60,033 nucleotides of DNA from a virus (lineage: Duplodnaviria > Caudoviricetes). Positions 2,890 to 40,552 of this stretch are shown piece after piece. The DNA lies in the IMG/VR virus record IMGVR_UViG_3300037484_000683, positions 1 to 60,033 of that record; one strand, given 5' to 3'. The notes beneath the pieces are model-generated. The model was not told where the DNA came from. It was given only the letters and a program-made list of their open reading frames with translations, and did not search any database. Positions within the stretch are counted from its first letter, which is position 1, and each line of letters begins with the position of its first letter. Position numbers and translations under genes: made by a program.

Positions 2890-4572
2890 TCATCCCACAA
2901 AGACTCCTTGCTTAAATAATCTATTTGGAGCTACACACAAACAAAATCCATCACCATCATCAGGAGAGCGGCTAAACTTGTCCTTGAACTTCTCTTTTGA
3001 GACAAGTTGCTTTAAGTCCAGTCGGGATTGTCCGTTACTTGTTTTGATGACATACCCATATTGCCGTTCACACAAGTCCGTCTCAAGATTAGGAGACGGT
3101 GATAAAAGCCTGAGTACCTTTAATGCCTGCCCGGCGTGGTAATACATCTCAGTTACACTATCGGCAAACTTGTCGTTTTCCAGGGCGGTTCCATTATTAT
3201 GGACTTCAAAAACCTTAAAAAGATCAAACCAGCTTTGCAGGTCGGCATCCCGGCGCAAGTTGTCAACGCAAGTTGAATGGTAGCCCCCGCCGGCGTCAAC
3301 TCTGACCCATACCCGTTTGACACCCTTATCTCTCAACTTCTGGCAAGCCTTTTTGACGGCCAGGTAATAAGCAAAGCCATCTTGCTTGGCTATCTCGGTT
3401 TCTTTCCAAACCATGCCGGCGTGCCGGATATAGATCGTGCCTTTGTCGTTTCCATAGCGGGCCGCATCAACTCCTAGCCACGCCTCCTCTGGATTATCCC
3501 CATCATACGGGGGATTGCTAATAGCTGCCTCGTATCGCCCTGGTGGGCAGAATGTGTCATCGGTTCCTTTAGACGAAGCAATACCCAGGACGCGCCAGAG
3601 GGTTTCGAGCGTGGGCCGGTAAATGGCACCGGGTTGCCAGGGTAGTTCAAAGGTATAATCATCCGCATTGTGTTCGTTGACTACCTCGCAGTTTTCAAGC
3701 ATCCCGGCAACGTATTCACGTCTAACCGAGCCGGGGATTATCTCTTTATCCTCTAAAACATTGGGATGCTCCAAGCAACTAATCCGAAAGGATTTGACGT
3801 TTTCGCGCCGCCTGATTTTGTGCGCTTTACAGGTGGTGGTGCGAGGGTTTCGAAGGATCAAAACGATAACGATACCACCGGAGGCCATACTTTCTACCGC
3901 CTCCCAAATGAAACCGGGTATACCTTCGGCTTCATCTAAAACAAACATCAGGTATTTACCATGCTGCCCTTGCGCCCGTTCGGTTCCTGTGCCTTTGGCG
4001 TTGTTTGTGGCCTTACCCTTTACGAAATGATTGCCCTTATACTTGATACGCGGCTCTAAAAGCACCTCGCCGGGCAGGTTTTTACCATCTCTATCGGTGC
4101 GAATTTCTTTGAATAGCAAGTCATTGATCTGGTCATCACTTGGGGCAAAGCAGTAGATAATTGAGGGAGCAAAGCAATCAAAGAAGTGAGAAACAATACC
4201 GGCTGCCAGTTTGGTTTTGCCAACATTGTGACCGGCGTCAACCGATAACCAATTTTGAATAATTTGCCCCGGACGCCAGTATTCGAGATCATCAAGAGTG
4301 ATGTTACCTTGCTCAAAATCGTAACGCTCATGCTGCTGGCGGAGGGCTAAAATGTAAGCATCAAGTATCTCAGATTGCTTATGCCAGGGGGTCCAGCCCA
4401 AAAACTGTTGAATATAGCCGGGGTCAAAGCGGTAGGGGGTAAAGCGTTCATCAACCTGCTCTACCTCGCTCACCACCTCCGCCATAAACGCATCGGCCTG
4501 CGCTGAGGGCAATGATAAAAACCAGCGGGCTAAAGCGGGGTCAACCTGCGAAATGACATCACTCCGTAACAT
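2890..4572 (-). CDS. terL: Terminase large subunit
   Basis: Walker A AGHNVGKT, Walker B FVLDEAEG, nuclease motifs LGVDAARYGND and SPDDGD. Confidence 0.95.
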   Translation of the reverse strand: MLRSDVISQVDPALARWFLSLPSAQADAFMAEVVSEVEQVDERFTPYRFDPGYIQQFLGWTPWHKQSEILDAYILALRQQHERYDFEQGNITLDDLEYWRPGQIIQNWLSVDAGHNVGKTKLAAGIVSHFFDCFAPSIIYCFAPSDDQINDLLFKEIRTDRDGKNLPGEVLLEPRIKYKGNHFVKGKATNNAKGTGTERAQGQHGKYLMFVLDEAEGIPGFIWEAVESMASGGIVIVLILRNPRTTTCKAHKIRRRENVKSFRISCLEHPNVLEDKEIIPGSVRREYVAGMLENCEVVNEHNADDYTFELPWQPGAIYRPTLETLWRVLGIASSKGTDDTFCPPGRYEAAISNPPYDGDNPEEAWLGVDAARYGNDKGTIYIRHAGMVWKETEIAKQDGFAYYLAVKKACQKLRDKGVKRVWVRVDAGGGYHSTCVDNLRRDADLQSWFDLFKVFEVHNNGTALENDKFADSVTEMYYHAGQALKVLRLLSPSPNLETDLCERQYGYVIKTSNGQSRLDLKQLVSKEKFKDKFSRSPDDGDGFCLCVAPNRLFKQGVFVG

Positions 4573-34843: not shown

Positions 34844-35317
34844 TTAAGACCTTTCATACGTCGCATTGATAGCAATTCTATCCCCATTAGCCAGCGCGAA
34901 GTTTGGCGTAACTCCGATAGCATTGGCGTTTCCGCTGGCTACGATTTGAAAATCAGCCGCACCCACTGCCGCCAAAACCCCATTATAAAATGTACCGGCG
35001 CTTAAATCTCGCACTTGCCCATTACCAATAACGACATCAATAGAGCCAGTGTCCACCGGGGCAATGGCTGCCGGGATGCCCCCGATACTAATAGCATTCG
35101 CCGCCGTGCCTGCCCCGGTAACGGCCAACCGTGCCCGCAAATGCACAGTATTGGCAATGGTTATATACCGAGCGTAAACCGTTGTAAATGTCACTGCCCC
35201 CGATTGGGTTAGTGTCGGCGTCCAAGTCACCCATAGCCCCACCTCCGGCTTGGTCAGCTCGTCTATCTGCTGCTGTAGCCGTGTAACCTGCTGGATTAGC
35301 TCATCTAAGTTTTTCAT
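34844..35317 (-). CDS. Tail fibre/tip-associated protein
   Basis: N-terminal coiled coil, WVTWTPTLT...ARY..I.NTVH beta-rich domain. Confidence 0.7.
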   Translation of the reverse strand: MKNLDELIQQVTRLQQQIDELTKPEVGLWVTWTPTLTQSGAVTFTTVYARYITIANTVHLRARLAVTGAGTAANAISIGGIPAAIAPVDTGSIDVVIGNGQVRDLSAGTFYNGVLAAVGAADFQIVASGNANAIGVTPNFALANGDRIAINATYERS

Positions 35318-36450
35318 CCAATGACCGCCTCGTAATCCAGCCGGGCCGAAATATCCTCTTTGCCGGCGTCGCCCCCGTCTTTTGAGATGACAACCGCTCG
35401 CACAATGCTATCAAATTCACGATTGCGGTAACGGGCTTTGACCTTATAGCCAATGTCCCAATCCCGGCCAAAACGTGTTCCCTGTGTATCCATGGGCACA
35501 GCGGAGAAACGTACTTGAGGCCGACCCGATTCGAGTAAACTTCTGGCCCTGGCAATGACTCCGTTATCGGTTGCTTGATCTCTGGCATCCGCTTCGGCCT
35601 CGCAACGCGCCCAAATAGAGGCACTATAGCGGGTACTGTCATAAACCTGCTGTACATTGCGATCCGCTTCCTCTCCCTGACCAGTGCCATAGATATAATT
35701 TTCTTCATCCTCGTAATCGTATTCGAGGCTGGCATTTCTGAGATTGCCTTTATCCTTGTCAAATGTTACCCGGTCGGTAACGTCCTGCCCTGGCTGGCCG
35801 GTAAACGTTTGAAATTGAAACGTGATGCTATTTGAAGTGACCACGTTGGGCACAATATCAAAAAATACCTCGTTACCGGCCTCACGGGATGCCTTAGCCA
35901 GTCCAGCTATAACCCCCTGGCCGGAAGCGGTTAATAATTTCTTGAAGGGGAATGAGTCGGAAATAGTCGGGCCGGCGCTCAAATCAGCGGCGATGCTCAA
36001 ATTAGACCAGACCCTTGTGCCGGCGGTCGGGGTAGGAGCCACCCCATCGGCAATTGCCTGGGTGACAATCTCTTTCATCATATCATCAGCAAAATCCGTT
36101 TTGCTGGCCTGAGCGCTGGCGGCAAAGGCGGCTACAATACGTCGCCTCAATAGGTCGTTGGTATCTAACCCCCCGACCGTCAACACCTCATCACTGCCCT
36201 GCATCTCGAATTTCCACTTGCGCACAAAGTAGGCTCGCCACAAACCCAAGCGCCCGCCGGTGGGTTGCCGCCACACTTGCAGCATTCTATCCGGGGCAGT
36301 CAGCAGGCTGTCATCAAACGAGGCCGGCATTTGCAGGTTAAATTTGCCTATACCGTTGACCACCCGCCCGCAGGTAATCGCCACGAAATTGTCAAGCGCA
36401 GCCAGTCTAACGCCTCGGTCATCGGTTAGCCAGAGTTCATAAAAGGCCAT
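35314..36450 (-). CDS. Siphovirus tail-tip hub protein (ReqiPepy6 Gp37-like)
   Basis: RVVNGIGKF, YGTGQGEEADR, FGRDWDIGYKV; position after the distal tail gene. Confidence 0.75.
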   Translation of the reverse strand: MAFYELWLTDDRGVRLAALDNFVAITCGRVVNGIGKFNLQMPASFDDSLLTAPDRMLQVWRQPTGGRLGLWRAYFVRKWKFEMQGSDEVLTVGGLDTNDLLRRRIVAAFAASAQASKTDFADDMMKEIVTQAIADGVAPTPTAGTRVWSNLSIAADLSAGPTISDSFPFKKLLTASGQGVIAGLAKASREAGNEVFFDIVPNVVTSNSITFQFQTFTGQPGQDVTDRVTFDKDKGNLRNASLEYDYEDEENYIYGTGQGEEADRNVQQVYDSTRYSASIWARCEAEADARDQATDNGVIARARSLLESGRPQVRFSAVPMDTQGTRFGRDWDIGYKVKARYRNREFDSIVRAVVISKDGGDAGKEDISARLDYEAVIG

Positions 36451-36479
36451 TTGACTTATCCATACATTGGGTATATAAT
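36451..36479 (+). promoter_or_regulatory. Promoter of the RAMP/array cassette (leaderless first gene)
   Basis: TTGACT-17 nt-TATAAT; ATG lies 7 nt after the -10 box. Confidence 0.85.
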
Positions 36480-36485
36480 GTCTAT

Positions 36486-36623
36486 ATGATTAAAATAAGT
36501 TTTTATATCACCAAAAAACAAAAGAAGGCTCTTGAGGACTTAAACGAATTAAGTTTGTCAGAGCATATCAGGCGGGCCATAGATGAATATTTGGCCCGTC
36601 TCAGAAAAGAAAGGAAAGAATAG
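36486..36623 (+). CDS. Ribbon-helix-helix (CopG-like) regulator, 45 aa
   Basis: Manual ORF MIKISFYITKKQKKALEDLNELSLSEHIRRAIDEYLARLRKERKE; missed by the track. Confidence 0.85.
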   Translation: MIKISFYITKKQKKALEDLNELSLSEHIRRAIDEYLARLRKERKE

Positions 36624-36625
36624 TT

Positions 36626-37207
36626 ATGTACACAATTCTCGTTTCCGTTGAAGGCATCGCCCCGTTGATGCAGCACCGTTACCCGCTGCCCGACTTTGCC
36701 GATTTGAGCAAGGGCGGCAAAAAGAAAACGGGTGAGCAGGATTACAGCCAGGAGTGGCGGGAATATCTTTACGTCTCGCCCGATGGTGACATCTACCAGC
36801 CTGCCACCCATTTTGATGGGGCGATGGTCAAGGCCGCCGCCGGTTACAAAATCCAGGGCGCAAGGGGCAAGACCTATAAAGACCTTTTCAAAGGTAATGT
36901 TTTTGTCAGTCCTGATGCTATCTATCATGGTGTTAAAGCTCCTGAAAATCTTGACGCTGATGCTGATAAGCCACTTTACCTTGATGTTAGACCCGTCGTT
37001 GTCCAGCGGGCGCGGGTGGTGCGAATCCGGCCCTGCTTTGCTCCTGGCTGGAAACTCAGTTTTGAGATAACCGTCCTTGATGACCAAGTACCACATAACG
37101 TAGTTAATGAGGTTCTTTCCCTTGCCGGTCGTACCGTTGGCGTTGGCGACTTTCGCCCGCGCTTTGGCCGGTTTATGGTCACCCGGTTTGAGGTTGCCAA
37201 GAATTAA
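36626..37207 (+). CDS. Small solo RAMP/Cas7-like RNA-binding protein
   Basis: First strand VSVEGIAPL, IYQPATHFDGAM helix motif, WKLSFEI strand, C-terminal Gly-rich loop AGRTVGVGDFRPRFGRF; directly followed by repeat arrays. Confidence 0.75.
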   Translation: MYTILVSVEGIAPLMQHRYPLPDFADLSKGGKKKTGEQDYSQEWREYLYVSPDGDIYQPATHFDGAMVKAAAGYKIQGARGKTYKDLFKGNVFVSPDAIYHGVKAPENLDADADKPLYLDVRPVVVQRARVVRIRPCFAPGWKLSFEITVLDDQVPHNVVNEVLSLAGRTVGVGDFRPRFGRFMVTRFEVAKN

Positions 37208-37209
37208 CC

Positions 37210-37278
37210 TTGTGGTGAGGAGTGGCCTGGTCTGGTATGGTACGGTCGGGTGCGGTTTGGTTTGGTGGGGTAAGGTTT
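37210..37278 (+). ncRNA. Putative guide RNA unit 1
   Basis: NN = GA GT CT CT AT AC CG GC TT TT GG AA TT. Confidence 0.65.
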
Positions 37279-37282
37279 CTTT

Positions 37283-37391
37283 TTGTGGTATGGAGGGCTA
37301 TGGCGTGGTGGGGGTCGGTGGGGTAATGTTCGGTACGGCCTGGGATGGTTGGGCGTGGCGAGACAAGGCGAGGTACGATATGGTGAGGTTA
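37283..37391 (+). ncRNA. Putative guide RNA unit 2
   Basis: NN = AT GG AT GT GG TC GG AA TC AC CT AT TG GT GA AA GA AC AT GA TA. Confidence 0.7.
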
Positions 37392-37395
37392 CAAT

Positions 37396-37479
37396 TTGTG
37401 GTAGGGGACGGTCGGGTCGGGTGCGGCAAGGTAAGGCCAGGCAGGGCGGGGCGAGGTAAGATAAGGTGAGGTATGGAAT
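37396..37479 (+). ncRNA. Putative guide RNA unit 3
   Basis: NN = AG AC CG CG GC AA AA CA AG GG GA AA AA GA AT AT. Confidence 0.65.
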
Positions 37480-37484
37480 CCATT

Positions 37485-37568
37485 TTGTGGTATGGATTGG
37501 TTAGGCTAGGTGATGTCAGGCGCGGTAAGGTAAGGTCAGGTCAGGTGGGGATTGGTATGGTGTGGCTA
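37485..37568 (+). ncRNA. Putative guide RNA unit 4
   Basis: NN = AT TT TA TA GA CA GC AA AA CA CA GG TT AT GT TA. Confidence 0.65.
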
Positions 37569-37587
37569 TTCAGTTAGGGGTAAATCA

Positions 37588-37851
37588 GTGTCAAGATATT
37601 TTCAAATAGATGAACTCCCAGGATTAAGATTTTTATGGTTTTCCCGTCTCTCCCTTGAGACGTGGCGACCCTTGAAACAGTTTATCTATGAACGCGATAG
37701 AGGGATTTGCAGCTACTGCAAAACTCAATTCCCCTATGAACAGACTCATTGCCATCACGCTTTAGAACTTTCCGAAGGCGGTACAAATCATCCAAGTAAC
37801 CTCAAAACTCTTTGTCATAACTGCCATAAAATTAGACATCCTTTTATGTAA
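37588..37851 (+). CDS. HNH endonuclease (87 aa)
   Basis: RDRGICSYC, HCHH, GGTNHPSNLKTLCHNCH; GTG start after AGGGG. Confidence 0.92.
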   Translation: MSRYFQIDELPGLRFLWFSRLSLETWRPLKQFIYERDRGICSYCKTQFPYEQTHCHHALELSEGGTNHPSNLKTLCHNCHKIRHPFM

Positions 37852-37853
37852 CC

Positions 37854-37978
37854 TTGTGGTAAGGGCGGGGCGGGGTACGGCACGGCGCGGCGTGGCGTGG
37901 CGAGGAACGGTCTGGCAGGGCAAGGTGAGGAACGGCACGGCGGGGCAAGGTGAGGCCTGGCAAGGTATGGATAGGGCT
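37854..37978 (+). ncRNA. Putative guide RNA unit 5
   Basis: After a 6-nt first unit GGTAAG, NN = GG GG AC AC GC GT GT GA AC CT AG AA GA AC AC GG AA GA CT AA AT TA CT. Confidence 0.75.
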
Positions 37979-38001
37979 AGAAATTCTATCCCTAATTTTT
38001 T
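37972..38001 (+). terminator. Terminator closing the cassette
   Basis: TAGGG-C-TAGA/TCTA-T-CCCTA imperfect stem followed by ATTTTTT. Confidence 0.6.
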
Positions 38002-40552
38002 AATCCTGACTTTTGAACTGTTCCTTCCATAACATCCATCCCGTAATCGTTGGACTACCGGAGGTTGCCACAAAGCTGCTAATAGTATTAGCAGCGGGTA
38101 GCAAGCTCCATGTCCCAAAATCCGAATTAGCTAAAATCGCATCTGGTCTAGGCCCAAAGAAATTAGATATTATTGATTTTTCGGTAGGGGTTAGGTCAAT
38201 CGTCAAACGCTCACCACTCAATAAGCTATAATTGAATAATAATTCTCGCCCGCTGGTTTCGTTCTTTAATGTCTCAATAATGCCCGTAGTGCCACCGCTG
38301 CGCTCGTAGATGATTTTGGGGAAGGCCGGGGCGTTGCCCTCGTTGGTTGCCGTGATCTTGCCGGCGAAGTTGCCTGTGCCGGTGGTGTCAAATCCGAGCC
38401 ATAAATTGTATTTTTGAGGTACGATAGAATCAACATACTTACTAGCTAAAATAGCTTGCGGAGTAGCCGAGCCTGGTAAATTTATATCTAAGTGTGCCCA
38501 GGCGTAACCATTCCAACGAGCTATTCTATCTGCCAGTGTGATACCCCCTGAGCTAGTAAATGCACCCGAAACGTAAAGGATACCATCATTGCCATAACTT
38601 AAAGCCTGTCCGGTATTATTTATACCACTACCCAACGCGATAAAGCCTGTTCCATCCCAAACGGCTATTCTACTAGCACTTACACCTCCCGCCGTTGTAA
38701 AGGCCCCGGTAACAAAAAGTAATCCATTAGGGGCTATGGTTAAAGCAAATCCTTGTGAGTTAAGTCCAGAGCCTAATGCCGTAAAGGCACCACTAGCCCA
38801 TTTTGCTATACTATTGACTGTTACCCCCCCGGCTGTTGAAAAATCCCCCGTTACATAGATAGCGCCGTCTATTCCTGTTGTTAAGCCTCGGCCTATATCA
38901 TTTAAGCCCGTTGACATAGCACTAAAGGCCGTACCGCTCCAGGAGGCTATCCGATTTGCGGCCACACCTCCAATAGTAGTAAATGACCCTGTAGCGTAAA
39001 GCGTGCCATCATGACCAAAAGTTAGGGAATTTACATCGTTATTTGCCCCTGTGCTTAGTGCGTTCCATGCACTGCCATCCCATCGGGCAATTCTAACCGT
39101 GTTGGCTACCCCGCCAGCTAGTGCAAATTCTCCCCCAATATAAACCGACCCATCTGGGCCTATAACAATACATGTTATAATCCCATTTGTGCCCGTACCC
39201 ATCGCTGAATAAGTAGCCGTTTGTTTGTTGTATCTAACGATATAATCAGCGTTGGCAATATTATCAAAGTTGAGGAAGTTACCTGCGAAATAGACATAAG
39301 TTGCATCTTCGGCAATCCCCCGAATTATCGTGTAAGTACCCGCCGCATTAGGCGGCCCCAATGCCGACCACTGCCCTGTTGATCGTAGTCGCGCTGCTAC
39401 TATCCTAAACGTCGCACTGTCATTCGTATCAAGCAGTGCCGCCGATTCGCCTATTTCAGTCCAATAAGGAGCCGGTGAGAAAAACCGCACCGCCACCCGT
39501 TCCCAGGCGCAAGGCTCCGAGGCTTGTATGTCTCCCTCTAGCCCCCCGTCGTAATGGGCCGCAATCTGCTTATGGATCGTTGCACCCTGATAGCGCAATC
39601 TGACCGGCTGCACCCCGTTCTCATCTTCGGGGTAGGTATCCGGCGATAGAGCATTAAGTAGCACCTGTTTTTTACTGTGGAAATCACTTTGACTTGTGCC
39701 GGTGATGACGCCGGTCAAGGTAAAGACCCGGCTGTCAATTTTGAGGCTGTTTAGCTCACCCCCCGGCAAAGCGGCATATTTATCTACGCCCAAATCCTGG
39801 GGAGCCGTGCCCACGCCCGACATACCCCCTATTTTTAGGTTATAGTCATCTTCTAAATCTTCTACCTTCCCCCCGGCTCGACTGGCCGCACTGCGCTGGC
39901 TGGTCGCTGCGTTCTCTGGCCCAAGCCATTCGCAACCTTCCTGAGTACCATCACAGTAGGTAGTCCAATATTCCTTCGCCTCCACCTGAATCCCGTCAAG
40001 GTAGAAGTCACCAGAGCCAGCGCCGTTTTGGTGTACTTCCAGTAGTACCGAGGCATTGGCCTGTGCTGCTGGGAATTGCAAACCGTACAGTGCCCAATTG
40101 GAATCTATTTGTTCCAGCAGGGTGGGAGCCGTAAAGGTTGCGCCGTTAAGTGACCAATCCCAGGCCGCGGGCAATGTACCACGCACGCGCATGGTAACGT
40201 AGTGAATGGCATTGGTTAAAGCCGATAAAGTAAATTCAATGCCCTCATTATCGGCATTGGTCTCCACCCGATAGGAATAGAGGCCATAGTGCTGATAGGT
40301 GGTAGACCGGGTAACGGTGGTGCCAGCTTCGGCGGCAAAGTTGCCGGTTAGTTCAGCACTAGGATTCATCACATAATTGATCGTGGCTTCCGGTGTTATG
40401 AGTTTCCAATCAGACATACCACCCCCGATATTGCAGGGATTCTCTGCTGACAGAATCGCAGGCAGCCAGACACAATACCCCTGACACTGTGCCCCAACAG
40501 GCAAGGCCGATAGCAGCCAAAGCAAGCAAACCGTTAAAAGTCGTTTCCACAT
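38000..40552 (-). CDS. Distal tail protein with carbohydrate-binding-like and beta-propeller insertions
   Basis: NYVMNPSAE...LDGIQVE module, repeated LY.GG.FT.AGG...IA.WDG blades, NEGNAPAFP; follows the tape measure; second start possible at 40417. Confidence 0.8.
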   Translation of the reverse strand: MWKRLLTVCLLWLLSALPVGAQCQGYCVWLPAILSAENPCNIGGGMSDWKLITPEATINYVMNPSAELTGNFAAEAGTTVTRSTTYQHYGLYSYRVETNADNEGIEFTLSALTNAIHYVTMRVRGTLPAAWDWSLNGATFTAPTLLEQIDSNWALYGLQFPAAQANASVLLEVHQNGAGSGDFYLDGIQVEAKEYWTTYCDGTQEGCEWLGPENAATSQRSAASRAGGKVEDLEDDYNLKIGGMSGVGTAPQDLGVDKYAALPGGELNSLKIDSRVFTLTGVITGTSQSDFHSKKQVLLNALSPDTYPEDENGVQPVRLRYQGATIHKQIAAHYDGGLEGDIQASEPCAWERVAVRFFSPAPYWTEIGESAALLDTNDSATFRIVAARLRSTGQWSALGPPNAAGTYTIIRGIAEDATYVYFAGNFLNFDNIANADYIVRYNKQTATYSAMGTGTNGIITCIVIGPDGSVYIGGEFALAGGVANTVRIARWDGSAWNALSTGANNDVNSLTFGHDGTLYATGSFTTIGGVAANRIASWSGTAFSAMSTGLNDIGRGLTTGIDGAIYVTGDFSTAGGVTVNSIAKWASGAFTALGSGLNSQGFALTIAPNGLLFVTGAFTTAGGVSASRIAVWDGTGFIALGSGINNTGQALSYGNDGILYVSGAFTSSGGITLADRIARWNGYAWAHLDINLPGSATPQAILASKYVDSIVPQKYNLWLGFDTTGTGNFAGKITATNEGNAPAFPKIIYERSGGTTGIIETLKNETSGRELLFNYSLLSGERLTIDLTPTEKSIISNFFGPRPDAILANSDFGTWSLLPAANTISSFVATSGSPTITGWMLWKEQFKSQD

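What the first reader, a model, noticed from the sequence alone, without database searches (positions are those of the whole stretch)
37205..38299. HNH nuclease embedded in the arrays, paired with the guide that points at the flanking gene: possible RNA-guided homing or exclusion
Seen: the RAMP-like gene and the HNH gene both end in the identical 12-mer TAACCTTGTGGT (37205-37216 and 37849-37860), which fuses the stop codon to the array opener. The array after HNH is the one matching a site about 240-300 bp outside the cassette edge. Established: free-standing phage HNH homing endonucleases cut the cognate allele of a neighbouring gene in co-infecting relatives and spread by repair. Inference: this 87-aa HNH has little room for its own specificity domain and may be recruited by the RNP to cut a rival's tail gene, driving cassette transfer or exclusion. 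Alternatively it is an independent passenger.
Basis: inference. Interest (0 to 1): 0.85.

Follow-up and report, generated by a model that had tools for sequence, protein, structure and literature searches.

The report
Phage VIPR cassette with HNH nuclease
A small phage gene cassette of the recently described VIPR type (a CRISPR-like RNA-guided DNA binder) carries its own HNH nuclease and one guide RNA aimed at the neighbouring tail-fibre gene as it exists in a related phage that lacks the cassette, which suggests a weapon against rival phages and possibly a self-spreading element.

Summary
Window 36451-37999 is one + strand cassette: promoter, RHH gene, a 193-aa gene, four pentamer (GGY-NN) arrays, an 87-aa HNH gene, a fifth array and a terminator. 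It lies exactly between two minus-strand tail genes.

This is a VIPR system, described in 2026 bioRxiv preprints. The 193-aa protein matches the solved SUSP1 Vipr protein (E 1e-9; profile 8.7e-27) and folds like Cas7-type RAMPs.

Read by the published rule (NN pairs, one target base skipped), the fifth array matches the adjacent tail-fibre gene in frame:
- 31 of 40 positions in the phage's own gene (38241-38299, minus strand);
- 39 of 40 in a related phage whose junction is empty;
- at most 26 of 40 for permuted guides.

The HNH is not a passenger. In 30 of 30 metagenome loci with enough upstream sequence, its relatives lie downstream of a vipr gene, and its catalytic residues are invariant.

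Not shown: that the HNH cuts, that the RNP recruits it (complex prediction gave weak support only), or that the cassette homes.

The verdict is a new member of a known kind. The guide aimed at a neighbour's allele makes RNA-guided exclusion or homing directly testable.

The parts
36451..36479 (+). Sigma-70-like promoter TTGACT-17-TATAAT at the left edge of the cassette
   Evidence: 11 of 12 consensus positions, and the only promoter-like site in 36350-38100. This is a consensus match only.
36486..36623 (+). 45-aa ribbon-helix-helix (CopG-type) gene, first gene of the cassette; probably a DNA-binding regulator or accessory protein
   Evidence: PF01402 RHH_1 E 2.9e-5, 24.3 bits (cut-off 20.5). 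Not conserved by sequence in the related loci: the phmmer returned no rows, and one search shows varied upstream ORFs.
36626..37207 (+). vipr gene: 193-aa Vipr protein, a minimal Cas7-like RAMP that polymerises on vrRNA
   Evidence: PDB 36pp_D 'SUSP1 Vipr protein', phmmer E 1e-9 over residues 8-186; profile E 8.7e-27; pLDDT 94.8; Foldseek top hits are type VII Cas7, Cmr4 and Csm3. PHROG 4652, E 1e-22; 8 of 8 viral relatives have GG-period-5 arrays directly downstream.
37210..37282 (+). vrRNA unit A1 (about 12 GGY-NN pentamers after the opener TTGTGGT)
   Evidence: No target found in the window, in five related phage records, in nine other loci, or by a 10-unit exact pattern in viral contigs.
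37283..37395 (+). vrRNA unit A2 (about 20 pentamers)
   Evidence: No target above the permuted-guide null.
37396..37484 (+). vrRNA unit A3 (about 15 pentamers)
   Evidence: No target.
37485..37572 (+). vrRNA unit A4 (about 15 pentamers); its end is approximate
   Evidence: No target.
37588..37851 (+). 87-aa HNH nuclease, a VIPR accessory (vap-type) gene
   Evidence: PF01844 E 2.1e-9. C41, C44, H56, H57, N67, H68, N71, H80 and H84 invariant, C76 and C79 nearly invariant, in 25 sequences; 30 of 30 loci have vipr upstream; a single compact domain, pLDDT 93.4.
37854..37978 (+). vrRNA unit A5: opener 37854-37860, 20 guide pentamers 37859-37958, constant 3' tail 37959-37978 that runs into the terminator stem
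   Evidence: The last three NN (AA AT TA) match in no allele and resemble the ends of the other units.
37969..38001 (+). Terminator-like hairpin and T-run closing the cassette, facing the stop of the tail-fibre gene
   Evidence: 8-pair stem at 37969-37991, then CTAATTTTTT.
38241..38299 (-). Site in the phage's own tail-fibre gene that A5 matches imperfectly (31 of 40 NN positions). It lies in frame, codons 752-771 (SGGTTGIIETLKNETSGREL), 241-299 nt from the cassette edge
38000..40552 (-). Tail-fibre-like gene (850 aa, beta-propeller repeats) flanking the cassette on the right
   Evidence: Homologous genes in 9 viral loci.
35314..36450 (-). Gp37-like minor tail protein gene flanking the cassette on the left
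   Evidence: PF14594 E 8e-19; phrog_538. In L009 this gene starts 3 nt after the tail-fibre stop.

Best explanation
Window 36451-37999 is a phage-borne VIPR system (Viral Interference Programmable Repeat). It has been inserted as one transcription unit between the tail-fibre gene and the next tail gene.

Shown here:
- The 193-aa protein is a Vipr, a minimal Cas7-like RAMP.
- The five arrays are vrRNAs. GGY is the fixed protein-bound part of each pentamer and NN carries the address.
- The 87-aa HNH belongs to a clade that is always found beside vipr.
- The fifth vrRNA, read by the published one-base-skip rule, spells codon positions 1-2 of a 20-codon stretch near the 3' end of the neighbouring tail-fibre gene. 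It matches almost perfectly in a related phage with an empty junction and imperfectly in the phage's own copy.

Taken from the preprints: Vipr polymerises on the vrRNA and binds double-stranded DNA at such gapped sites, which silences transcription.

Inferred:
- When a related phage carrying the matching allele is in the same cell, the Vipr-A5 filament binds that rival's tail-fibre gene.
- The small HNH has no recognition domain of its own. It acts at or beside the bound filament and nicks or cuts there. The rival then loses an essential tail gene (allelic exclusion).
- The resident genome is spared by its nine mismatches.
- Because the target lies about 240-300 bp from the cassette, repair of a cut rival from the cassette-bearing genome could also copy the cassette and its protected flank into the rival (homing). 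This last step is the least supported.
For: Identity as VIPR:
- Sequence match to the solved SUSP1 Vipr and a Cas7-like fold.
- GGY-NN arrays downstream of the gene in 8 of 8 viral relatives. Type II hammerhead ribozymes sit between arrays in 3 of these 8 loci, which shows the arrays are RNA.
- The architecture and code are as described in bioRxiv 10.64898/2026.04.26.720920. I read its Results, Discussion, methods sections 20 and 27, and passages found by term search.

Guide and target:
- Only the 1-nt skip gives a signal: 31/44, against 24-25 for other skips and a permuted-guide maximum of 27.
- The match is in frame, with the skipped base on the wobble position.
- Matches of the 20-unit guide: 39/40 in L009/G001, 34 in G002, 33 in G004, 32 in L011, 31 in G003, 30 in G005 and L015, 31 in the window itself. 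The null maximum is 26.
- L009 matches the guide at 8 of the 9 positions where the window's own allele mismatches it.

Empty site:
- In L009 the tail-fibre stop is followed after 3 nt by the next tail gene.
- None of the 9 relatives' loci carries arrays at this junction. The next gene follows within about 50 nt or less in 8 of them, and a different gene follows in L010.

The HNH is dedicated to VIPR:
- Of 56 metagenome loci found with the HNH profile, 30 of 30 with at least 1100 nt upstream have vipr upstream on the same strand. 46 of 51 with at least 200 nt upstream have an array just upstream.
- In the viral loci, HNH is present in 3 of 3 loci with Vipr at least 71% identical, plus G002 at 82%, and in 0 of 5 loci at 53% identity or less.
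- The catalytic residues are invariant.
- The cassette has one promoter and one terminator.

Predicted complex (two Vipr plus HNH): weak support. Score 0.40, best of 3 controls 0.00. That mark was reached by 58 of 80 solved complexes and 2 of 110 mismatched pairs, but at 0.60 or under by only 7 of the 80. The runs agree in at least 38% of contacts and the partner's pLDDT is at least 78.

Same logic elsewhere:
- In L043/L038 a vrRNA matches codons at the start of the gene just after the HNH: 19/22 in L043, local score 14.5 against an unrelated maximum of 10.
- In L036/L037 seven units match perfectly the start of the gene just before vipr: 14.0 against 12.
Against: - No biochemical or expression data exist for this locus. 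No sequencing run was listed.
- The preprints demonstrate silencing without any nuclease, so binding alone could explain exclusion.
- The own allele matches at 77.5%, only just under the 80% cut-off the preprint uses to call targets. Several relatives at 80-85% are hardly better than self. How many mismatches the complex tolerates is not known to me.
- The target stretch is not unusually diverged between the window and L009: 8 differences at positions 1-2, and 35% of 20-codon windows in the gene have as many or more. There is thus no signature of selected escape.
- The L009 record is only about 75% identical over the 66% that aligns. That is too distant for efficient repair-mediated homing. 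An exact 12-unit pattern found no other carrier in viral contigs.
- A guide-to-neighbour match above the unrelated-locus maximum was seen in only 3 independent groups (window, L043, L036/37) of 36 loci scored, and several of those 36 are duplicates. A downstream array follows the HNH in only 19 of 46 loci.
- Four of the five vrRNAs have no identified target.
- The complex prediction is weak.
Confidence: 0.55

Rival explanations
1. Silencing only. The Vipr-A5 filament blocks transcription of the rival's tail-fibre operon, as shown for type II VIPR. The HNH has another job, such as a general nuclease acting on host or competitor DNA, vrRNA maturation, or packaging help as with other small phage HNH proteins. 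It is not aimed by the guide.
For: The preprints show strong phage restriction and prophage induction by vrRNA plus Vipr alone, and targeting inside coding regions on either strand silences. The cryo-EM preprint says it is unclear whether accessory nucleases sense the bound complex (passage found). The complex prediction is only weak. An array follows the HNH in only 19 of 46 loci.
Against: The HNH clade is strictly linked to vipr (30 of 30), sits inside the array region in one operon, and keeps its catalytic residues. It has a conserved 35-residue N-terminal part of no known function that could be a docking surface. The discovery preprint itself reads nuclease-bearing types as target-destroying.
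Confidence: 0.25
2. RNA-guided homing is the main function. The cassette is a selfish element. Its HNH, aimed by A5, breaks cassette-free genomes about 240-300 bp from the insertion point, and repair copies in the cassette together with the mismatch-protected end of the tail-fibre gene.
For: The insertion lies precisely in an intergenic spot that is empty in relatives. The guide matches the cassette-free allele and not the linked one. The target is close to the insertion. As I recall, free-standing phage homing endonucleases have the same geometry; I saw only the listing abstracts of PMC2790892 and PMC2988022. Guide-to-neighbour matches occur in two further locus groups. A related cassette sits at a different place in G002, so the unit moves.
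Against: No second genome with the cassette at this junction was found, so there is no co-conversion tract to examine. The only near-perfect target is in a genome about 75% identical. Tight linkage of a guide and its immune allele is also expected for pure exclusion. Most loci show no such match.
Confidence: 0.25
3. The HNH is an independent free-standing homing endonuclease that happened to land inside the array region.
For: Small HNH genes are common mobile passengers in phage genomes (established knowledge). PHROG HNH families match it. The closest solved relatives are generic HNH enzymes: McrA at E 3.7e-7 and the Gme nicking HNH at E 1e-3.
Against: 30 of 30 loci of this clade with enough flank have vipr upstream. 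The 11 of 56 loci without a Vipr hit all have 840 nt or less of upstream sequence. The protein is a single 87-aa domain with no recognition module. The same stop-to-opener junction follows both genes and recurs in relatives.
Confidence: 0.03
4. Self-regulation. A5 binds the phage's own tail-fibre gene through the 31/40 match, to time or limit late transcription that converges on the cassette.
For: The own-gene match is well above chance. The cassette and the tail genes are convergent and divergent neighbours. In L036 seven units match the adjacent gene of the same genome perfectly.
Against: The guide fits another phage's allele much better: 39/40, with 8 of the 9 own-allele mismatches matched there. 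The preprint reports that perturbing NN pairing abolished silencing and that no self-hit reached 80% in their sets. Pairing a nuclease with a self-directed guide would be hazardous.
Confidence: 0.05

Closest known systems
VIPR systems (Vipr + vrRNA), type II of Escherichia phage SUSP1 and a Pseudomonas fulva prophage; bioRxiv 10.64898/2026.04.26.720920, 10.64898/2026.04.26.720927, 10.64898/2026.10.15.759431
   Same: Homologous Vipr protein. GGY-NN pentamer vrRNAs beside the gene. The one-base-skip, wobble-aligned target code works here. The system is phage-borne and aimed at a competing mobile element. A vrRNA aimed at other systems' vipr genes, a kind reported in the preprints, was also seen in related loci.
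   Different: About 27-30% of positions match SUSP1 Vipr in the printed alignment (my estimate by eye). The accessory genes are an RHH and an HNH nuclease rather than the winged-helix type shown for type II. Each unit opens with TTGTGGT directly after a stop codon. Units have 12-20 repeats. The identified target is a structural gene of a related phage, next to the cassette itself, not a satellite or a lysogeny regulator.
Nuclease-bearing VIPR types (types III and V in the discovery preprint; an HNH-domain Vap is shown in its Fig. S21 legend)
   Same: Vipr with a predicted HNH accessory nuclease. The preprint proposes target destruction rather than repression.
   Different: The preprint describes these types as enriched in defence islands and acting for the host. 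Here the cassette is in a virus record between tail genes. Related HNH loci lie beside a tape measure gene (L040), a major head gene (L080) and a tail spike gene (L083). No nuclease activity has been reported for any of them in the texts I read.
Free-standing HNH homing endonucleases of T4-like phages (such as MobE)
   Same: A small HNH gene lies between conserved genes and is absent from relatives. The presumed target is in the neighbouring gene of cassette-free genomes, a few hundred bp from the insertion. The linked allele differs from the target. (Concept taken from the listing abstracts of PMC2790892 and PMC2988022, and from general knowledge.)
   Different: Those enzymes recognise DNA through their own protein domains. 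This HNH has none and never occurs without vipr and arrays. Specificity would come from an RNA-protein filament.
TnpB / IscB (OMEGA) RNA-guided nucleases of IS200/IS605 elements
   Same: A mobile element carries its own guide RNA aimed at the element-free version of its site, so that a break promotes its retention or spread. (Listing abstracts of PMC10055086 and 10.1101/2023.11.20.567912.)
   Different: There a single large RuvC or RuvC+HNH effector binds a structured guide with a contiguous match, and a TnpA transposase is present. Here there is a RAMP filament with a gapped code and a separate tiny HNH, with no transposase. Homing here is only a hypothesis.
Type I CRISPR Cascade variants with an HNH domain fused to Cas5 or Cas8 (PDB 8zp7, 8yb6)
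   Same: A RAMP backbone on a guide RNA is combined with an HNH nuclease in place of a helicase-nuclease. These chains appear among the weak structural neighbours of the HNH model (E 0.05-0.07).
   Different: In those systems the HNH is fused to a Cascade subunit, the guides are contiguous CRISPR spacers, and adaptation genes are present. None of this is seen here.

Membership tests
VIPR system | Vipr protein homologous to the characterised Vipr | tested here: met
   phmmer against PDB chains: 36pp_D 'SUSP1 Vipr protein', E 1e-9, residues 8-186 of 193. A profile of 106 homologs gives E 8.7e-27.
VIPR system | Minimal RAMP fold (RRM core with glycine-rich loop and thumb, as the preprint describes) | tested here: met
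   AlphaFold2 model pLDDT 94.8. Foldseek PDB top hits are Cas7-type RAMPs: 8z4l_F E 4e-7, 6s6b_I, 6xn3_F, TM about 0.55-0.59. The nearly invariant glycine-rich C-terminal motif G168/G172/D175/R177/P178/G181/F183 is consistent with a G-loop. I did not map the loop and thumb individually.
VIPR system | Tandem YNNGG (GGY/NN) repeat RNAs next to vipr | tested here: met
   Five units with GG fixed at period 5. Arrays follow the gene in 8 of 8 viral relatives. Rfam has no family for them.
VIPR system | Targets recognised by NN pairing with one skipped base, usually the codon wobble position | tested here: met
   Met for A5: only skip 1 gives a signal, in frame, and 39/40 in a relative. For A1-A4 no target was found.
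VIPR system | vrRNAs expressed, processed and bound by Vipr; the complex binds DNA | not testable with these tools
   No sequencing run was listed for the cassette. Indirect only: hammerhead ribozymes between arrays in L004, L005 and L007, and a promoter and terminator around the cassette.
VIPR type III (HNH Vap) of the discovery preprint | Placement in the preprint's Vipr phylogeny and vap gene clusters | not testable with these tools
   The typing rests on figures and supplementary data that are not held or are closed. The main text and legends only say that HNH domains occur among the Vap proteins shown for types II, III and VII, and that types III and V carry nucleases.
Free-standing HNH homing endonuclease | Intact HNH (beta-beta-alpha-metal) catalytic motif | tested here: met
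   PF01844 E 2.1e-9. Cys, His and Asn positions are invariant or nearly so in 25 sequences.
Free-standing HNH homing endonuclease | Own DNA-recognition module and occurrence independent of other systems | tested here: not met
   An 87-aa single domain. 30 of 30 loci with enough flank carry vipr upstream.
Free-standing HNH homing endonuclease | Cleaves the element-free allele near the insertion site and is copied in by repair | not testable with these tools
   Only the geometry is shown: an empty site in L009 and a guide-matching allele 241-299 nt from the junction.
CRISPR-Cas (class 1) | Repeat-spacer CRISPR array and adaptation genes (cas1, cas2) | tested here: not met
   The arrays are 5-nt periodic with no repeat-spacer structure. 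The cassette holds only the RHH, vipr and HNH ORFs.
OMEGA (TnpB/IscB) elements | Single large RuvC-type effector with a structured guide, and a TnpA transposase | tested here: not met
   No such ORF lies in or beside the cassette. IscB and Cas9 appear only as distant HNH-domain matches.

The most novel reading that the evidence does not exclude
The HNH-bearing VIPR cassette is an RNA-guided homing element, a natural gene drive among phages. One of its vrRNAs is kept aimed at the cassette-free allele of the gene next to its own insertion point. The Vipr filament marks that allele in a co-infecting relative and the docked HNH breaks it. Repair from the cassette-bearing genome then copies in the cassette together with the mismatch-protected flank. 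That would couple a gapped, wobble-tolerant RNA code to homing. It would also explain why guide and immune allele are adjacent, here and in two other locus groups (L043/L038 and L036/L037).
Probability: 0.25. Interest if true: 0.8.

Novelty: new member of a known kind. Interest (0 to 1): 0.55.

Why it matters
VIPR was described only in 2026. In the texts I read, its accessory nucleases are predicted but uncharacterised, and the nuclease-bearing types are presented as host defence.

This locus gives a concrete natural test case. It is a complete, compact operon of about 1.55 kb in a phage. One guide has an identifiable natural target: the tail-fibre allele of a cassette-free relative. A linked near-cognate self allele defines what the system must tolerate.

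It allows direct tests of three things:
- whether the 87-aa HNH is aimed by the Vipr filament;
- how many NN mismatches protect self;
- whether guide-plus-nuclease cassettes spread by homing.

If the HNH is guide-directed, the pair would be one of the smallest RNA-programmable DNA-cutting systems, with a code that ignores wobble positions. If not, the locus is still a clear example of phage-against-phage targeting of a structural gene.

Tried and rejected
Tools that gave nothing:
- Rfam finds no family in 36000-38500.
- Pfam does not recognise the 193-aa protein; the only hit is a sub-threshold FUBP_C match.
- No RNA or DNA sequencing run was listed for the cassette (after two busy answers), so there is nothing on expression or processing.

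Ideas held before the literature search and dropped once the VIPR preprint turned up: G-quadruplex arrays, a TRAP-like ring binder, a ribosome or CsrA sponge, and coding repeats.

Target searches for the other guides:
- A1-A4 have no hit above permuted-guide nulls in the window, in five whole related records, or in nine other loci.
- Exact 10-unit patterns for A1 and A3 gave 0 hits in viral contigs.
- The first 11 units of A5 gave 0 hits because L009 has one mismatch there. Units 9-20 found only the L009 record.
- The L043 guide pattern gave 0 hits.

Reciprocal targeting: 652 guide windows from all fetched loci, scanned against the window and G001-G005, gave only 5 hits at 20/24. The null gave 1 of 7824 at 20.

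Self-scans:
- 12-unit windows found no self hit of 20/24 or more in 17 sequences.
- 11-unit windows lack power; the window's own case is not separated.

Other checks:
- The escape-signature test was negative.
- RHH conservation: no homolog was found in the related loci. The phmmer run returned no rows and the script stopped on the empty list.
- Plain TTGTGGT elsewhere in the window is at chance level: 14 matches against 7.2 expected.
- The genome-contig scan with the HNH profile gave one locus only, a Caldilinea aerophila MAG with a 5'-truncated vipr.
- No tyrosine integrase (PF00589) was found in the 92%-complete record and no tRNA, so lifestyle and host remain open.
- Apparent 0.75-1.3 kb 'insertions' at the same junction in L011, L012, L014 and L015 are, where I looked (L012, L014), N-terminal extensions of the next gene and not cassettes.

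Full report
**What is in the sequence.** Between two minus-strand tail genes lies a 1.55-kb + strand block, 36451-37999. The flanking genes are a Gp37-like minor tail protein (35314-36450; PF14594, E 8e-19) and an 850-aa tail-fibre-like protein (38000-40552). In order, the block holds:
- a near-consensus promoter, TTGACT-17-TATAAT, at 36451-36479;
- a 45-aa ribbon-helix-helix gene (PF01402);
- a 193-aa gene at 36626-37207;
- four back-to-back arrays (37210-37572);
- an 87-aa HNH gene at 37588-37851 (PF01844, E 2.1e-9);
- a fifth array (37854-37978);
- a hairpin with a T-run.

The arrays are pentamers with GG fixed, a pyrimidine usually third, and two free bases. This period-5 GG signal occurs nowhere else in the 60-kb record, and only on the + strand. 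Each unit opens with TTGTGGT: the motif TTGTGGTRNGG occurs 5 times, all at unit starts, against 0.17 expected.

In both it joins a TAA stop codon to an opener. The same junction recurs in relatives. By a strict pattern it follows 25 of 38 distinct vipr ends and 8 of 40 distinct HNH ends, and locus L035 has the identical 17 bases after its HNH. The 12-mer is therefore a family feature and not a local accident.

**What it is.** The 193-aa protein belongs to a very large family with no Pfam model:
- PHROG 4652, function unknown;
- 407 relatives with E at or below 0.001 among 477 candidates;
- 2577 representatives with E at or below 0.001 in the 50%-clustered library.

All 8 relatives found in viral contigs, at 46-78% identity, have GG-period-5 arrays directly after the gene. 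In three of them a type II hammerhead ribozyme sits between two arrays (Rfam RF02276, 40-42 bits against a threshold of 37). That shows the arrays act as RNA cut into units.

A full-text search then found the bioRxiv preprint 10.64898/2026.04.26.720920. I read its Results, Discussion, methods sections 20 and 27, and passages found by term search. [quoted passage not shown]
- a roughly 20-kDa Vipr protein, an early-branching RAMP;
- vrRNAs made of YNNGG repeats, which bind double-stranded DNA through the NN dinucleotides while skipping one target base per unit, usually the codon wobble base;
- seven types with accessory vap genes. Some of these are predicted nucleases, including HNH domains, and some arrays are interspersed with hammerheads.

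Two companion preprints give the filament and triplex structures and a phage-satellite contest. I saw their abstracts and term-search passages only.

Membership was tested directly. The window protein matches PDB chain 36pp_D, 'SUSP1 Vipr protein', at E 1e-9 over residues 8-186. A 106-sequence profile matches it at E 8.7e-27. The AlphaFold2 model (pLDDT 94.8) is closest to Cas7-type RAMPs: type VII Cas7 8z4l_F at E 4e-7, then Cmr4 and Csm3.

**The guide and its target.** I read the NN positions of the five units and scanned both strands of the window under skips of 0 to 3 bases, with permuted guides as the null.

Units A1-A4 gave nothing above the null. A5 under skip 1 gave 31 of 44 at 38232-38296 on the minus strand. 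Other skips gave 24-25, and the permuted maximum was 27.

The alignment is in frame with the tail-fibre ORF, with the skipped base on codon position 3. The last three pentamers match in no allele and resemble the ends of the other units, so I treat them as a constant 3' tail. One degenerate pentamer upstream also fits. That gives 20 guide units (37859-37958).

This guide matches:
- 31 of 40 positions in the phage's own gene (38241-38299);
- 39 of 40 in locus L009 (record G001);
- 34 in G002, 33 in G004, 32 in L011, 31 in G003, 30 in G005 and in L015;
- at most 24 in seven loci that lack the gene.

The permuted maximum is 26. In the 23-unit scan, L016/L017 scored 27 of 46. L009 matches the guide at 8 of the 9 positions where the own allele mismatches it. 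Several of these differences are conservative or synonymous at the protein level (G/A, I/V, K/R, S/T, R/K, Leu codons).

The guide therefore spells another allele of the neighbouring gene, not a decayed copy of the resident one.

**The junction in relatives.** In L009 the tail-fibre stop is followed after three bases by the start of the Gp37-like gene. The cassette is thus a clean insertion into that intergenic spot.

None of the nine related loci has arrays near this junction. In eight of them the next tail gene follows directly, in some with a long N-terminal extension. In L010 (record G002) a different gene follows.

Of five related records searched whole, only G002 has a vipr gene (82% identical), and it lies about 7 kb away from the tail fibre with its own HNH. 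The cassette therefore occurs at different places in related phages.

Two cautions apply. G001 is only about 75% identical to the window over the 66% that aligns. And the target stretch is not unusually diverged between the two genes: 8 differences at positions 1-2, and 35% of 20-codon windows have as many or more.

**The HNH.** The protein is 87 aa. The usual Cys, His and Asn positions are invariant or nearly so across 25 relatives, and it has a conserved 35-residue N-terminal part. The model is one compact domain (pLDDT 93.4). The nearest solved relatives are generic: McrA at E 3.7e-7 by profile, and the Gme nicking HNH at E 1e-3 by fold, with Cas9, IscB, TasH and Cas5-HNH Cascade further down.

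Its clade is small, 58 proteins. A metagenome scan with the HNH profile gave 56 loci:
- All 30 with at least 1100 nt upstream have a vipr gene upstream on the same strand.
- The 11 without a Vipr hit all have 840 nt or less upstream.
- 46 of the 51 with at least 200 nt upstream have an array just before the HNH.
- 19 of the 46 with at least 200 nt downstream have an array just after it.

Some of these loci are near-duplicates, so the number of independent cases is lower. In the viral set, HNH accompanies Vipr at 71% identity or more (3 of 3, plus G002) and never at 53% or less (0 of 5).

The 'independent passenger' reading is therefore very unlikely.

A complex prediction of two Vipr copies with the HNH gave weak support only. 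The score was 0.40 and the best of three controls 0.00. That mark was reached by 58 of 80 solved complexes and 2 of 110 mismatched pairs, but at 0.60 or under by only 7 of those 80. The runs agree in at least 38% of contacts and the partner's pLDDT is at least 78.

The neighbours of related HNH loci are often phage structural genes: tape measure in L040, major head protein in L080, tail spike in L083. L043 is flanked by a TROVE-type RNA-binding protein and a BNR propeller, and L067 by glycosyltransferases (10 proteins from 6 loci examined). This differs from the preprint's picture of nuclease types as residents of defence islands. I could not place the locus in their typing because figures and supplements are not available.

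**Is the guide-to-neighbour relation general?** I scored every array run of 36 loci against its own flanks and against unrelated loci, using a local score.

Three independent groups exceed all unrelated comparisons:
- the window: 17.0 against 12;
- L043: 14.5 against 10. L043 and L038 are related loci, and the duplicate pair L038/L039 only ties its unrelated maximum, 12 against 12;
- L036/L037: 14.0 against 12.

In L043 a vrRNA matches 19 of 22 positions at codons 3-13 of the gene that begins about 160 nt after the HNH. In L036 seven units match perfectly codons 2-8 of the gene that ends 4 nt before vipr. Most loci show nothing. That is expected if own alleles are mismatched, but it also means the pattern is suggestive and not established.

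The same scan showed the single vrRNA of L040/41/42 matching the vipr genes of other loci: 9 of 9 units in L054, 8 of 8 in L064/65, and weaker matches in L067, L044, L077 and L001. The preprints already report anti-VIPR guides of this kind.

**Most likely mechanism.**

Shown here:
- The cassette is a VIPR operon.
- The HNH is a dedicated partner.
- One vrRNA addresses the tail-fibre allele of a cassette-free relative.
- The resident allele carries nine mismatches.

Taken from the preprints: Vipr polymerises on vrRNA and binds such sites, which silences transcription.

Inferred:
- In mixed infection the Vipr-A5 filament binds the rival's tail-fibre gene, and the HNH, which has no recognition domain, acts at the bound filament. 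I put this at about 0.55.
- The rival then loses an essential tail gene.
- Because the site lies 241-299 nt from the insertion, repair from the cassette-bearing genome could also import the cassette with its protected flank. I put homing at about 0.25.

Tight linkage of guide and immune allele is expected under both exclusion and homing, so adjacency alone does not tell them apart.

Silencing without cleavage remains a serious rival, at about 0.25. No tyrosine integrase was found in the 92%-complete record, which fits action during co-infection better than prophage defence, but that evidence is weak.

**Comparison and novelty.** The locus is a member of the VIPR family by every feature I could test.
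- It is not a CRISPR system: there is no repeat-spacer array and there are no adaptation genes.
- It is not a free-standing homing endonuclease: the HNH has no recognition module of its own and never occurs alone.
- It is not an OMEGA element.

It may work like the last two. They share the idea of an element aimed at its own empty site (listing abstracts only for PMC2790892, PMC2988022, PMC10055086 and 10.1101/2023.11.20.567912). Term searches for 'homing' and 'HNH' found neither word in the two companion VIPR preprints. In the discovery preprint HNH occurs once, in a figure legend; I did not term-search it for 'homing', and the word does not appear in the sections I read. Supplements that I could not see may hold more.

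I rate it a new member of a known kind. Its new and testable aspect is a phage-borne, nuclease-bearing VIPR whose guide targets the cassette-free allele of its own neighbour.

Noticed in passing
window 36457-36469 and 37961-37973: A 13-nt inverted repeat, 12 of 13 complementary (TATCCATACATTG / CAAGGTATGGATA), lies near both ends of the cassette. The left arm is in the promoter spacer and the right arm in the constant tail of A5 (I9). It could be chance, an operator, or a trace of how the cassette moves.
   Followed up: no
L040 about 2328-2372 (also L041, L042): [quoted passage not shown] It matches 9 of 9 units in L054 (624-649) and 8 of 8 in L064/L065, with weaker matches in L067, L044, L077 and L001. 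It matches its own vipr at only 5 units. This looks like an anti-VIPR guide, a kind reported in the preprints.
   Followed up: partly
L043 2928-2982 vs 3408-3439; L036 2932-2966 vs 1935-1954: vrRNAs in two other HNH-type cassettes match the first codons of the gene immediately flanking the cassette. L043 matches 19 of 22 positions in a BNR-propeller gene. L036 matches 14 of 14 in a small gene ending 4 nt before vipr.
   Followed up: partly
L004 1075-1132, L005 4647-4704, L007 479-536: Type II hammerhead ribozymes (Rfam RF02276, 40-42 bits) lie between two vrRNA arrays in more distant, HNH-less VIPR loci. Each locus is followed by a gene that looks to me like a Mu GemA-like gene, judged from reading the sequence and not tested.
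   Followed up: partly
L090 5600-6300 (Caldilinea aerophila MAG contig): This is the only hit of the HNH profile in 185,579 species genomes. It has a vipr gene cut at its 5' end, arrays containing internally duplicated stretches of pentamers, and an intact HNH. It hints that hosts of this clade may be Chloroflexota.
   Followed up: no
L035 1341-1455 (record G002): A GG-period-5 array lies on the opposite strand about 1 kb upstream of vipr, in addition to the array after the HNH. In this locus vipr and HNH abut with no array between them.
   Followed up: no
window 37854-37878: A5 has two possible registers at its 5' end (GGTAA GGGCG GGGCG GGGTA, or GTAAG GGCGG GGCGG GGTAC). Only the second fits the target. 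Similar one-base phase slips occur inside arrays of L036.
   Followed up: partly
L012 5913-8327, L014 5626-7479: In some relatives the Gp37-like tail protein carries a long N-terminal extension: 804 and 617 aa, against 378 aa in the window.
   Followed up: no
L043 513-1949: A TROVE/Ro-like RNA-binding protein gene (PF05731 E 2e-18; phrog_850) lies just upstream of an HNH-type VIPR cassette.
   Followed up: no
window 36486-36623: The RHH gene inside the cassette has no sequence relative upstream of vipr in the other loci examined. L040 has a different RHH-like ORF about 260 nt upstream. The first gene of the operon seems to be exchangeable.
   Followed up: partly
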